This document shows, one piece after another, positions 38,210 to 42,294 of a stretch of 64,000 bases of DNA (position 1 is its first letter; each line of letters begins with the position of its first letter). The stretch is from Octopus vulgaris. Taxonomy: Eukaryota. The position numbers were made by a program, and so were the translations under genes. The DNA is taken from positions 109,120,001 through 109,184,000 of the forward strand of contig OX597816.1 of NCBI GenBank assembly GCA_951406725.2, in the 5' to 3' direction. The notes beneath the pieces are model-generated. The model had not been told where the DNA came from. It worked only from the letters and a program-made list of their open reading frames with translations, and ran no database searches.

Positions 38210-38578
38210 TTATCTATCTATCTATCTATCTATCTATCTATCTATCTATCTATCTATCTATCTATCTATCTATCTATCTATCTATCTATCTATCTATCTA
38301 TCTATCTATCTATCTATCTATCTATATATCTATCTATCTATCTATCTATCTATCTATCTATCTATCTTTCTACCTGCCTGCATACCTGCCTACCTGTCTG
38401 TCTGCCTGTCTCTTTGCTTGCCTGCCCATCTATCTATCTATCTATCTATCTATCTATCTATCTATCTATCTATCTATCTATCTATCTATCTATCTATCTA
38501 TCTATCTGTCTGTCTGTCTGTCTATCTATCTATCTATCTATCTATCTATCTATCTATCTATCTATCTATCTATCTATC
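38210..38578. repeat. (TCTA)n tetranucleotide array with a (CCTG/TCTG) insert
   Basis: Direct sequence. Related arrays at 39293-39365, 39920-40323 and 41034-41114. Confidence 0.95.
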
Positions 38579-39292
38579 CTGTGGGCTTATGTCGAACGAC
38601 TGCTGTCACGTGTGGGACGAGTCGGTTTATCAGCCGAGTCTATCGTTAATATCGTCACGCCTCCTTCCTTCAAACGGGAAGGAAGAGCTATTTTTATCAT
38701 ACTTGTGGCTATGGCGAAAGAATGTATCTGGTGGACGCGCCTGAAAGGATTAGAGACAAACACTTTCCTCTCTGGTCAATCTCTCATCAACTTCTTCAAG
38801 TATCACTTGAAGAAAAAAGTGAGAGTAGAGAGGCAAGTTTTGTCTAGTGAATGTTTTAAAAAAAGATGGGTGAATGTAGCAAGGATGGCACGTATGAATG
38901 ACGAAGCCACCTTGACTATGATTCTATGAACCGTAAAAATTAATACAGAGAGTTGCTTATTTGCAAAAAAAAAAAAAAAAGAAATATAACATGTGACTTC
39001 ATTGACCGAGGTTACCGTGGTTTTTTCCGTAGACTTTTCTTTTCACGGGTAAACCTCACCTGTCCTCCCCTTTACACTTCATATTGACATTTCTGTGATA
39101 ACGATCCCTATTATTCATTTTTTTTGCCCCCCCCCTTTTTTTAACCACTCCCTTTTTTTGTCCTCTTTCTTTCCTTTTACGATCCATTTTGATCGAAAAC
39201 CACCACTCCCTTTTTTTTTACCCCCAAAAGAAAAGCTCTACCTTGTAATTTGTTCTATCTGTGTGCAGCCCTGTGTGGCTAATAAAGAAACA
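38579..39292 (+). mobile_element. Tx1/L1-clade LINE 3' fragment, copy 1 (ORF2 C-terminus plus 3' UTR)
   Basis: Open frame LWAYVERLL...[13 protein letters not shown]...FKKRWVNVA...MIL* (to 38929) resembles Tx1 ORF2 C-termini (W..V, AK..IW..R, F...W). Pyrimidine-rich 3' UTR, AATAAA at 39281, then (TCTA)n. Confidence 0.75.
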
Positions 39293-39365
39293 TATCTATC
39301 TATCTATCTATCTATCTATCTATCTATCTATCTATCTATCTATCTATCTATCTATCTATCTATCT

Positions 39366-39919
39366 AGACAAACACTTTCCTCTCTGGTCAATCTCTCATC
39401 AACTTCTTCAAGTACCACTTGAAAAGGAAAGTGAGAGTAGAGAGGCAAGTTTTGTCTAGCGAATGTTTTAAAAAAAGATGGGTGAATGTAGCAAGAATGG
39501 CACGTATGAATGACGAAGCCACCTTGAGCATAGTCCTATGAACCCAGAAATCGAAAACAGAGAGTTGCTTATTTGCAAAAAAAAAAAAAAAAAGAAATAT
39601 AAAATGTGACATCATTGACCGAGGTTACCGTGGTCTTTTCCGTAGGCTTTTCTTTGCACGGGTAAACCTCACCTGTCCTCCCCTTTACACTTCATATTGA
39701 CATTTCTGTGATAACGATCCCTATTGATCAATTTTTTTCCTCCCCCCTTTTTTTTAAACCCCCTTTTTTTTTGTCCTCTTTCTCTCCTTTTACGATCCCT
39801 TTTTATCGAAACTCCCCCTTCCTTTTTTTTTTTTTTTTTTTCTTAAACCTTCAAAAGAAAAGCTCTACCTTGTAATTTGTTCTATCTGTGTGCAGCCCTG
39901 TGTGGCTAATAAAGAAACA
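39366..39919 (+). mobile_element. Tx1-like LINE 3' fragment, copy 2 (more truncated, diverged)
   Basis: Homologous to 38754-39292 with many substitutions. Identical 3' end GGCTAATAAAGAAACAT-ATCT. Confidence 0.75.
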
Positions 39920-40323
39920 TATCTTTCTACCTGCCTGCATACCTGCCGACCTGTCTGTCTGCCTGTCTCTTTGCTTGCCTGCCCATCTATCTATCTATCT
40001 ATCTATCTATCTATCTATCTATCTATCTATCTATCTATCTATCTATCTATCTATCTATCTTTCTACCTGCCTGCATACCTGCCTACCTGTCTGTCTGCCT
40101 GTCTCTTTGCTTGCCTGCCCATCTATCTATCTATCTATCTATCTATCTATCTATCTATCTATCTATCTATCTATCTATCTATCTATCTATCTATCTATCT
40201 ATCTATCTGTCTGTCTGTCTATCTATCTATCTATCTATCTATCTATCTATCTATCTATCTATCTATCTATCTATCTATCTATCTATCTATCTATCTATCT
40301 ATCTATCTATCTATCTATCTATC

Positions 40324-41033
40324 CTGTGGGCTTATGTCGAACGACTGCTGTCACGTGTGGGACGAGTCGGTTTATCAGCCGAGTCTATCGTTAATATCGT
40401 CACGCCTCCTTCCTTCAAACGGGAAGGAAGAGCTATTTTTATCATACTTGTGGCTATGGCGAAAGAATGTATCTGGTGGACGCGCCTGAAAGGATTAGAG
40501 ACAAACACTTTCCTCTCTGGTCAATCTCTCATCAACTTCTTCAAGTATCACTTGAAGAAAAATTGAGAGTAGAGAGGCAAGTTTTGTCTAGTGAATGTTT
40601 TAAAAAAAGATGGGTGAATGTAGCAAGGATGGCACGTATGAATGACGAAGCCACCTTGACTATGATTCTATGAACCGTAAAAATTAATACAGAGAGTTGC
40701 TTATTTGCAAAAAAAAAAAAGAAATATAACATGTGACTTCATTGACCGAGGTTACCGTGGTTTTTTCCGTAGGCTTTTCTTTTCACGGGTAAACCTCACC
40801 TATCCTCCCCTTTACACTTCATATTGACATTTCTGTGATAACGATCCCTATTATTCATTTTTTTTGCCCCCCCCTTTTTTTTAACCACTCCCTTTTTTTG
40901 TCCTCTTTCTTTCCTTTTACGATCCATTTTGATCGAAAACCACCACTCCCTTTTATTTATACCCCCAAAAGAAAAGCTCTACCTTGTAATTTGTTCTATC
41001 TGTGTGCAGCCCTGTGTGGCTAATAAAGAAACA
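40324..41033 (+). mobile_element. Tx1-like LINE 3' fragment, copy 3
   Basis: Near-identical to copy 1 with the same 5' junction TATC|CTGTGGGC. One frameshift near 40562. Confidence 0.75.
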
Positions 41034-42294
41034 TATCTATCTATCTATCTATCTATCTATCTATCTATCTATCTATCTATCTATCTATCTATCTATCTAT
41101 CTATCTATCTATCTGCTTACCTAGAGATACAGATGGACTGTTAAAGATGCAATAATAGTCAATTTGTTAAGTTATTTTAGCTACCTGCTCCAAGGTCAAT
41201 AAGATTATTATAAATATCTGACGTATACTTATGTCAAGTACTTTATTCTGTTGATGCTCACTGTCTTTATGAATGCAAAATATTCATTTTTGGCTATATT
41301 TGTTTGTGTGTGTTTGTATATGCATGTGGACGTGTGTGTATGATATATATATATATATATATATGTATATATATATATACATATATATATATATATATAT
41401 GTGTGTGTGTGTGTGTGTTTGTGTATATATATGTATATATATATATATATATATATATATATATATATATTGGGAGAGAGGGAGGGAGGGAGAGACAGAT
41501 GGAGAGTGAATGAGTGAGAGAGAGGTTTCCTGCTTGGGAGCATTTAGAGGTGTGTGTGAATCAGTGTGTTCAGAAACTCTCACACTCTATTTCACGCTAA
41601 TACGTATATCTGTACATAAACGTACATGCACACATTTACACACACACGTACACTCACTCATTCCCTCGCACATACACACACATATATGTGCATACATACA
41701 CTTATCTATATAACTTTTACACTCACAAATAGTGTGCATGGAAGGATGTGGGGGGCGGCGAGAAGGTTAAAAAATTTTAAAACGAAGAAAGACGCAGAGA
41801 TGAGACATGTCTAGGAGATACGAGCGACTCCCAATAATCCTGAAGAACAGTGGAAAGAGATGTGATGTTTAAATCAAAGGTCTAAATCGAAAACTTCAGT
41901 AATCTTCAAAGAAAATTATAAATAAAAGCCAGCAGTTTAAACCAATTGACTGTGGTCAGGTTTTAGACTTCTAGGCGACGATTCCTGACATGACCATGGC
42001 AGTTAATTTTGTAGCTTCTTTGTGTCTAACCAATTCCATTGTTGTCCTTCTGAATGTCAAACAATCTGACTGAAAACTTTAGCAACCGGAATGGATGGAG
42101 TGTTGTTGTTGGTGTTGATGATGTTTGCTGCTCTTCGTTTCTTTCATTAGGTTTATTTGTTTGTTTGCTTGTTTGTTTGTCTGATTTTTAGTTGTTTGAA
42201 TTTGGTTTTGGTTCTGTTTAGCGAATCTGCTGTGGCACCTTGCTGTCAAATTATAATTATTGTTGTCTCTTTGAAGAAATCGGTTTTATAAATG

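What the first reader, a model, noticed from the sequence alone, without database searches (positions are those of the whole stretch)
38210..41114. Candidate (GATA)n/(TCTA)n-targeting Tx1-like retrotransposon
Seen: three 3' fragments of one LINE, each preceded by (TCTA)n, all ending at the identical junction GGCTAATAAAGAAACAT|ATCT with no poly(A). Copy 2 has a different 5' truncation point and many substitutions, so there were at least two independent insertions into the same tetranucleotide array, in the same orientation and repeat register. Established: the Tx1 clade includes site-specific APE elements, among them Kibi (TC repeats) and Koshi (TTC repeats). Inference: this is a GATA-repeat-specific family, a specificity I do not recall being described. 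It would imply an endonuclease recognising (GATA)n and could contribute to the abundance of GATA arrays.
Basis: partly seen in the sequence, partly recalled or inferred. Interest (0 to 1): 0.75.

Follow-up and report, generated by a model that had tools for sequence, protein, structure and literature searches.

The report
Octopus LINE targeting GATA microsatellites
A young, abundant jumping gene in this octopus-like genome sits mostly inside GATA microsatellites, facing one way and without a poly(A) tail, likely because its DNA-cutting enzyme prefers that repeat; repeat-targeting elements of this kind are known, but I did not find this target in the papers searched.

Summary
Real, and the targeting claim holds genome-wide. 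The three fragments are 3' ends of a ~6.2-kb APE-RT LINE of the L1/Tx1 group with at least 5,939 copies. 5,185 of these 3' ends run straight into ATATC and 1 into AAAA. In 100 copies chosen without regard to flanks, 65 have (TATC)n at the 5' junction, at 63 different lengths, none in the opposite orientation, against 0.8% background. All 30 full-length heads examined are array-flanked. Nine hand-picked sites show 6-14 nt target duplications starting TATC/TATA with no added tail, so the repeat is target, not tail. Corrections: copies 1 and 3 are one insertion duplicated; copy 2 differs because it belongs to a second subfamily. The family occupies under a tenth of GATA arrays, so it explains little of their abundance. 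The enzyme's preference is inferred, not assayed. It is a new member of a known kind (Kibi, Koshi, crocodilian Tx1). A GATA target was not found in 9 literature searches, but Repbase and Dfam were not checkable. This scan noted the same family before elsewhere in this genome (e1-9514738).

The parts
38211..38578 (+). Target (TATC)n array upstream of copy 1, interrupted by a 63-nt degenerate spacer (38366-38428) and a (TCTG)n block
38579..39292 (+). Copy 1: 5'-truncated 3' end (714 nt) of the LINE, subfamily A; last 116 codons of ORF2 (stop 38927-38929), then the 3' UTR ending AATAAA-GAAACA
   Evidence: 98.0% to full-length copy L078
39293..39365 (+). (TATC)18 between copy 1 and copy 2
39366..39919 (+). 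Copy 2: independent, shorter 3' fragment (554 nt), subfamily B
   Evidence: 98.7% to a subfamily B copy, 89.5% to subfamily A
39920..40323 (+). One TATC unit, second spacer copy (39923-39985, one substitution), array, third spacer copy (40059-40121), array with (TCTG)n block
40324..41033 (+). Copy 3: duplicate of copy 1 (same 5' base, same upstream spacer; 5 mismatches, 1-nt deletion in the ORF2 remnant), not a third insertion
41034..41114 (+). (TATC)20 closing the array

Best explanation
These are fragments of a young, two-ORF LINE of the L1/Tx1 group whose copies lie mostly inside pre-existing (TATC)n/(GATA)n arrays in one orientation, likely because its APE endonuclease nicks the GATA strand and the freed GATA end primes reverse transcription. 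Shown: element structure, copy number, 5' and 3' junctions in the array, fixed orientation, 6-14 nt target duplications that start at TATC or TATA, and no poly(A) or added repeat tail. Inferred: the first nick falls at GATA^G/A or GAT^A (the shared T leaves 1 nt open). Inferred: a single TATC with an upstream pyrimidine is enough now and then, so arrays win by offering many sites. Inferred and untested: the exact A-only junction arises because the RNA reads through into (UAUC)n and pairs with the GATA primer in place of poly(A):T pairing. Locally, subfamily A and subfamily B each inserted once, and copy 1/3 was later duplicated, likely by unequal exchange between TATC runs.
For: Structure: ORF1 634 aa with a CCHC knuckle; ORF2 1,136-1,145 aa with Pfam Exo_endo_phos, RVT_1 and zf-RVT and intact APE motifs. 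3' ends: 5,185 of 5,939 followed by ATATC, 4,286 by ATATCTATCT, 1 by AAAA. 5' junctions: 65 of 100 have >=12 nt of (TATC)n (74 have >=8 nt), 55 of 86 after removing copies with an upstream neighbour, 31 of 38 young copies; 0 of 100 in the opposite orientation; background 0.77% TATC, while (TA)n is 4.4% of background but 2 of 100 junctions. Full-length heads 30 of 30. 5' and 3' arrays are equally long (median 8 and 8 units, Wilcoxon p 0.55), as expected for insertion inside an existing array. Nine hand-picked sites have duplications beginning TATC/TATA, preceded by C or T in the target and by A at the element end, with no extra units. Both subfamilies share the EN hairpin stretch nearly unchanged. 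Microsatellite targeting by Tx1 families is established (PMC4494074, passages and section 15 read; PMC3812793, passages read).
Against: 26 of 100 copies have <8 nt of TATC at the called 5' junction, and 8 of these have a long 3' array but a non-array 5' junction. One is a 5' inversion with the array further upstream; the others are unexplained and could be later rearrangement or an RNA-borne tail. Only 4 of 17 divergent (<86%) copies are array-flanked. Of 41 copies with a short 3' repeat, only 11 show an informative duplication. Copy 2 in the window shows at most 5 nt duplicated. The 100 copies are the first 100 hits on contig C1, not a random genome sample, and three share one 5' flank. No empty orthologous site and no enzyme assay.
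Confidence: 0.85

Rival explanations
1. The endonuclease is only loosely specific (a TAT-type nick) and the preference comes from RNA-primer pairing: a read-through (UAUC)n RNA end lets priming succeed mainly at nicks inside (GATA)n.
For: The 3' junction is exact, a single A in about 87% of copies genome-wide and poly(A) in 1 of 5,939, although AATAAA lies 5 nt upstream. Off-target sites need only TATC or TATA. Eight copies have a long 3' array with a non-array 5' junction.
Against: At off-array sites no extra TATC units are copied in, and 3' arrays are not longer than 5' arrays. The pyrimidine before every one of 9 duplications suggests enzyme preference outside the pairing zone. It is compatible with the best explanation as a co-factor.
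Confidence: 0.1
2. (TATC)n is an element-encoded tail, as in L2/CR1/RTE, and the 5' arrays are tails of neighbouring copies or later expansions.
For: 28 of 100 copies have another copy within 500 nt, all on the same strand; 3' ends are more uniformly TATC than 5' ends.
Against: 55 of 86 copies with no upstream neighbour still have a 5' array; 63 distinct lengths; no tail at off-array sites.
Confidence: 0.03
3. Insertion is random and copies are passively retained, or spread by recombination, in GATA arrays.
For: Copies 1 and 3 show that arrays do duplicate embedded copies.
Against: The youngest copies are the most array-bound (31 of 38); orientation and register are fixed; the more abundant (TA)n and (TACA)n arrays are not used.
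Confidence: 0.02

Closest known systems
Kibi (TC)n and Koshi (TTC)n, teleost Tx1 clade (Kojima and Fujiwara 2004, not held and not read; described in PMC4494074 and PMC3812793, passages read)
   Same: APE-RT LINE of the L1/Tx1 group inserted in a microsatellite; ORF2 of similar length (about 1,150 aa in the fish proteins BAC82621 and BAD04856; that these are Kibi/Koshi-type entries is my recall).
   Different: Target is (TATC)n, not a pure-pyrimidine repeat; mollusc host; 36-37% RT identity, and the best trees do not join the two lineages, though a joint clade is not rejected (p-AU 0.088).
Crocodilian Tx1 families on (TTCC)n/(TTTC)n (PMC4494074, section 15 read)
   Same: Tetranucleotide microsatellite target; this family passes that paper's criterion for target specificity (>20% of flanks) by a wide margin.
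   Different: Different motif and lineage. That paper's Fig. 3, which lists the repeat units of other Tx1 families, could not be seen.
Keno (U2 snRNA-targeting Tx1)
   Same: U2-flanked LINEs fetched with this family's profile (L156, L157, L162, L168, L169) are among the closest target-labelled relatives by RT score (34-41% identity).
   Different: Target is a gene, and L169 keeps a poly(A) run before the target, which this family lacks.
Waldo (ACAY)n, Mino (AC)n, Dong (TAA)n (PMC3812793, passage read)
   Same: LINEs reported to insert in microsatellites, including a tetranucleotide.
   Different: Other motifs; R1 and R4 clades (clade labels partly recalled), not the L1/Tx1 group.
L1-Tx1 families of Octopus vulgaris (PMC13282606; parts 1 and 2 of 3 read, supplement searched)
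   Same: 80 L1-Tx1 families, 13 recently active with 421 insertions, are catalogued; this family may well be among them.
   Different: No target specificity is described in the text read; GATA, TATC, target and microsatellite have 0 hits in the supplement. The Zenodo library could not be seen.

Membership tests
L1 group / Tx1 clade LINE | ORF2 with N-terminal APE endonuclease, RT and C-terminal zinc-binding region | tested here: met
   Pfam PF03372 4e-13, PF00078 1e-31, PF13966 5e-6; best solved relative human L1 ORF2p, 190 bits vs R2 75 bits
L1 group / Tx1 clade LINE | Separate ORF1 with CCHC zinc knuckle | tested here: met
   634-aa (A) and 674-aa (B) ORF1; zf-CCHC E 0.004, below the curated cut-off; Atlas look-alikes are CCHC proteins at 0.90-0.93
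L1 group / Tx1 clade LINE | 5' truncation and variable target-site duplication (TPRT footprint) | tested here: met
   93 of 100 copies shorter than 5,900 nt; duplications of 6-14 nt at 9 hand-picked sites
Tx1 clade | RT falls with Tx1 families and outside L1 proper | tested here: inconclusive
   Outside the L1-proper branch (SH-aLRT 100; union with L1 p-AU 0.047, borderline) and among Keno-like and fish TX1-named lineages, but deep forks are open, both trees are quick searches, and Xenopus Tx1L itself was not available
Tx1 clade | Target-sequence preference (>20% of flanks, criterion of PMC4494074) | tested here: met
   65 of 100 5' junctions, 82 of 100 either side
Kibi/Koshi lineage | Target (TC)n, (TTC)n, (TTCC)n or (TTTC)n | tested here: not met
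   5' runs >=12 nt: TATC 65, TC 5, TTC 0, TTTC 0 of 100
Kibi/Koshi lineage | RT nested in the fish microsatellite-targeting clade | tested here: inconclusive
   Not nested in either tree; a sister union is not rejected (p-AU 0.088); anchor identity recalled
LINEs with element-encoded microsatellite tails (L2/CR1/RTE type) | Repeat tail added at any site, unique 5' flanks | tested here: not met
   No added units at off-array sites; 5' flanks mostly arrays
Catalogued Repbase/Dfam family with GATA specificity | An entry with this sequence and target | not testable with these tools
   No repeat library is on hand
Sequence-specific APE (as shown for Tx1L, R1Bm, TRAS1; recalled) | Isolated endonuclease nicks the target in vitro | not testable with these tools
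   Bench assay needed

The most novel reading that the evidence does not exclude
A cephalopod Tx1 lineage evolved microsatellite targeting independently of Kibi/Koshi and replaced poly(A) priming with target-templated priming: its RNA ends in read-through (UAUC)n that pairs with the GATA end freed by its own nuclease. That would give base-exact, tail-less integration into GATA repeats from a still intact ORF2, a first GATA-STR-specific retrotransposon and a clean system for separating enzyme specificity from RNA-guided specificity.
Probability: 0.3. Interest if true: 0.62.

Novelty: new member of a known kind. Interest (0 to 1): 0.42.

Why it matters
It adds a new repeat motif and a mollusc host to the short list of microsatellite-specific LINEs. 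How APE elements pick a microsatellite is described as not well understood (PMC3812793, passage read). This family makes that testable: thousands of young copies, two subfamilies, several copies with open ORF2, and off-target sites that already outline the nick. GATA arrays are common marker loci, so insertions there would also affect microsatellite genotyping in octopuses (inference). It does not explain why GATA arrays are abundant.

Tried and rejected
Three independent insertions in the window: rejected, copies 1 and 3 are a duplicate. Copy 2 as an old decayed copy: rejected, it is a young subfamily B copy. Element-encoded tail: rejected. Major source of GATA arrays: not supported; 68,171 run starts of (TATC)6 in one of four phases alone (this counts restarts inside interrupted arrays), and 33 arrays in 344,953 nt of distal flank, against about 6,000 element ends. 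Expression and RNA 3' end: no RNA holder listed; contigs laid on the 3' end skip the repeat and cannot show an RNA end. Empty-site test with other sequencing runs gave no result, so that question is open. Targets of the 38-45% identical sister proteins: no genomic context available; the metagenome scan returned only distant relatives, and none of 17 of the 80 loci examined showed a GATA array. ORF1 against a fish ZCCHC3-type ORF1: only the knuckle aligns. The Tx1L endonuclease paper is not held; supplements of PMC4494074 could not be read and may list further targets. PMC2684134 gave no accession numbers for Kibi/Koshi. The careful 87-row tree did not finish; quick trees were used. Search of earlier findings by sequence gave nothing.

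Full report
Observation. The region holds three same-strand fragments of one repeat, at 38579-39292, 39366-39919 and 40324-41033, embedded in (TATC)n. All end at the same base after AATAAAGAAAC with no poly(A). Copies 1 and 2 keep the open C-terminal end of a reading frame that matches the end of the full-length ORF2. Copies 1 and 3 start at the same base, differ by 5 mismatches and 6 gap positions, and follow the same degenerate spacer and (TCTG)n block, so they are one insertion duplicated. Copy 2 is 98.7% identical to a subfamily B copy and 89.5% to subfamily A, while copy 1 is 98.0% identical to subfamily A. So there were two independent insertions, by two subfamilies. One unequal exchange between an allele without and an allele with copy 2 would give the present order (inference); merged haplotypes in the assembly are not excluded.

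The element. The window lies in G000, 2.8 Gb in 227 contigs. The nearest named protein is from Argonauta (67%), so the host is taken to be an octopod (inference). An exact 26-nt 3'-end pattern has 5,939 matches, the reversed control 0; this is a lower bound. Twenty long stretches around young copies gave several full-length elements of about 6.2 kb. ORF1 is 634 aa with a CCHC knuckle and ORF2 is 1,136-1,145 aa with APE, RT and zf-RVT domains. The APE motifs are in place (their role is recalled from L1). Subfamily B has a different ORF1 (674 aa) and an open 1,145-aa ORF2 in 5 of the 7 long copies examined, one of which is an A/B recombinant. The subfamily A head pattern has 110 exact matches.

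Target test, 3' side. Of 5,939 ends, 5,185 are followed by ATATC, 4,286 by ATATCTATCT and 1 by AAAA.

Target test, 5' side. I took the first 100 listed hits (contig C1, first 28.8 Mb; 100 of 5,939; chosen without regard to flank), fetched up to 6.7 kb upstream and called junctions by BLAST against full-length copies. A run of at least 12 nt of same-strand (TATC)n lies at the 5' junction in 65 of 100 (at least 8 nt in 74; either side in 82), over 63 distinct element lengths from 54 to 6,294 nt. The opposite orientation occurs at 0 of 100. In 6,000 random 34-nt windows from 344,953 nt of distal flank the rates are 0.77% for TATC, 0.53% for GATA, 4.4% for (TA)n and 1.4% for (TACA)n; (TA)n is at 2 and (TACA)n at 1 of the 100 junctions. 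The junction window was wider than 34 nt where my two junction calls differed, which cannot explain an 80-fold gap. Subsets: 59 of 93 truncated copies, 55 of 86 without an upstream neighbour, 31 of 38 young, 30 of 45 middle and 4 of 17 divergent copies. All 30 full-length heads fetched (30 of 110, contigs C1-C4) have the array upstream, as do 14 of 15 young copies picked by similarity to copy 1. Upstream and downstream arrays have the same median length, 8 units.

Footprint. Of 41 copies with at most two perfect units after the end, 11 show an informative duplication of at least 8 nt. Nine hand-picked sites have duplications of 6-14 nt that begin TATC (7) or TATA (2). In each the target has C or T before the duplication and the element has A, and no extra repeat unit or poly(A) is added. 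The repeat is therefore the target, not a tail. The T after GAAACA is present in both element-side and target-side readings, so the first nick on the GATA strand is at GATA^R or GAT^A. A few copies continue GAAACA with a base other than T, which favours GAAACA as the templated end.

Against. 26 of 100 have under 8 nt of TATC at the called 5' junction; 8 of these have a long 3' array. One is a 5' inversion whose true end abuts an array; the rest may be later deletions or insertions, or RNA-borne tails. Many copies show no duplication beyond the pure repeat, including copy 2 here. 28 of 100 have a same-strand neighbour within 500 nt and three share one 5' flank, so the 100 are not fully independent. 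No empty orthologous site was obtained.

Mechanism. Shown: insertion into existing arrays, one orientation, one register, short duplications, no tail. Inferred from TPRT and from the statement that target choice is mainly set by the endonuclease (PMC4494074, passage read): the APE nicks the GATA strand and the 3'-OH primes cDNA. Off-array sites suggest a minimal site near Y-TATC, so arrays are favoured by site density. The exact junction, with AATAAA only 5 nt upstream, suggests an RNA that extends into (UAUC)n and pairs with the primer; this is untested.

Placement. Human L1 ORF2p is the best solved relative (190 bits), but L1-proper fish proteins score about 520-530 bits against it. In quick RT trees of 87 and 34 rows the family groups with Argonauta and another 71%-identical protein, sister to unnamed 38-45% relatives (SH-aLRT 99-100). 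This clade lies among lineages that include U2-flanked Keno-like loci (identified by Rfam) and fish proteins, one named TX1. Union with L1 proper is borderline rejected (p-AU 0.047); union with the fish Kibi/Koshi-like clade is not (0.088). The 34-row set left out 53 rows, including the five long branches. It works like Kibi/Koshi; it is probably Tx1; it is not shown to be of the Kibi/Koshi lineage, and its motif differs.

Effect on GATA arrays. One of four start phases of (TATC)6 alone has 68,171 matches, against about 6,000 element ends, and the window's other long (TCTA)n array at 56552-56795 has no copy. Each insertion adds at most about three units. The abundance claim is therefore weak.

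Novelty. Nine literature searches gave no GATA/TATC-specific LINE. Targets listed in what I read are TC, TTC, TTCC, TTTC, ACAY, AC, TAA and TG (PMC4494074 passages and section 15; PMC3812793 and PMC4640811 passages). PMC13282606 (parts 1-2 of 3, supplement searched) catalogues 80 L1-Tx1 families in O. vulgaris without targets. PMC8967140, PMC8869645, PMC3747384, PMC5786205, PMC3124438 and PMC2684134 were seen as passages only and added nothing on this. Kojima and Fujiwara 2004, Fig. 3 and supplements of PMC4494074, Repbase and Dfam were not seen, so prior cataloguing remains possible. Other unchecked notes report further target-specific Tx1 families in this genome. Verdict: a well-supported new member of a known kind, interest 0.42.

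Noticed in passing
L083 (G000:C1 hit at 51248, - strand): Full-length recombinant: subfamily A head and ORF1 joined to an open subfamily B ORF2; ORF1 exchange between subfamilies with the target unchanged.
   Followed up: partly
L068 (G000:C1:11130200-11140000): Copy with a 171-nt inverted 5' segment abutting a TATC array, a twin-priming-like structure.
   Followed up: partly
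L104 (G000:C1 hit at 10528393, - strand): The one copy of 100 whose 3' end runs directly into (GATA)n in the opposite orientation.
   Followed up: no
L035, L038, L085, L102, L147: Copies whose 3' ends run into (AT)n, (AC)n or TACA-type sequence rather than TATC; may be off-target events or sister families with another preference.
   Followed up: no
L237-L266: Full-length heads begin with GGACAGACAGAC, itself a GACA-type repeat, often after 1-3 extra TC units at the junction.
   Followed up: no
L156, L157, L162, L168, L169: Metagenome LINEs flanked by U2 snRNA pieces (Keno-like); L186 lies near a U1 gene and L173 next to a 5S rRNA gene.
   Followed up: partly
window 37190-37351: Short frame with a motif that I recall as mariner-transposase-like; Pfam gave no hit, so unconfirmed.
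   Followed up: partly
window 12553-13013: Recent tandem duplication of a 228-nt unit, 99% matches.
   Followed up: no
window 56552-56795: A 61-unit (TCTA)n array with no copy of the element.
   Followed up: partly
L145, L146, L149: Three 135-nt copies with the same 5' flank, likely one insertion inside a larger duplicated segment.
   Followed up: no
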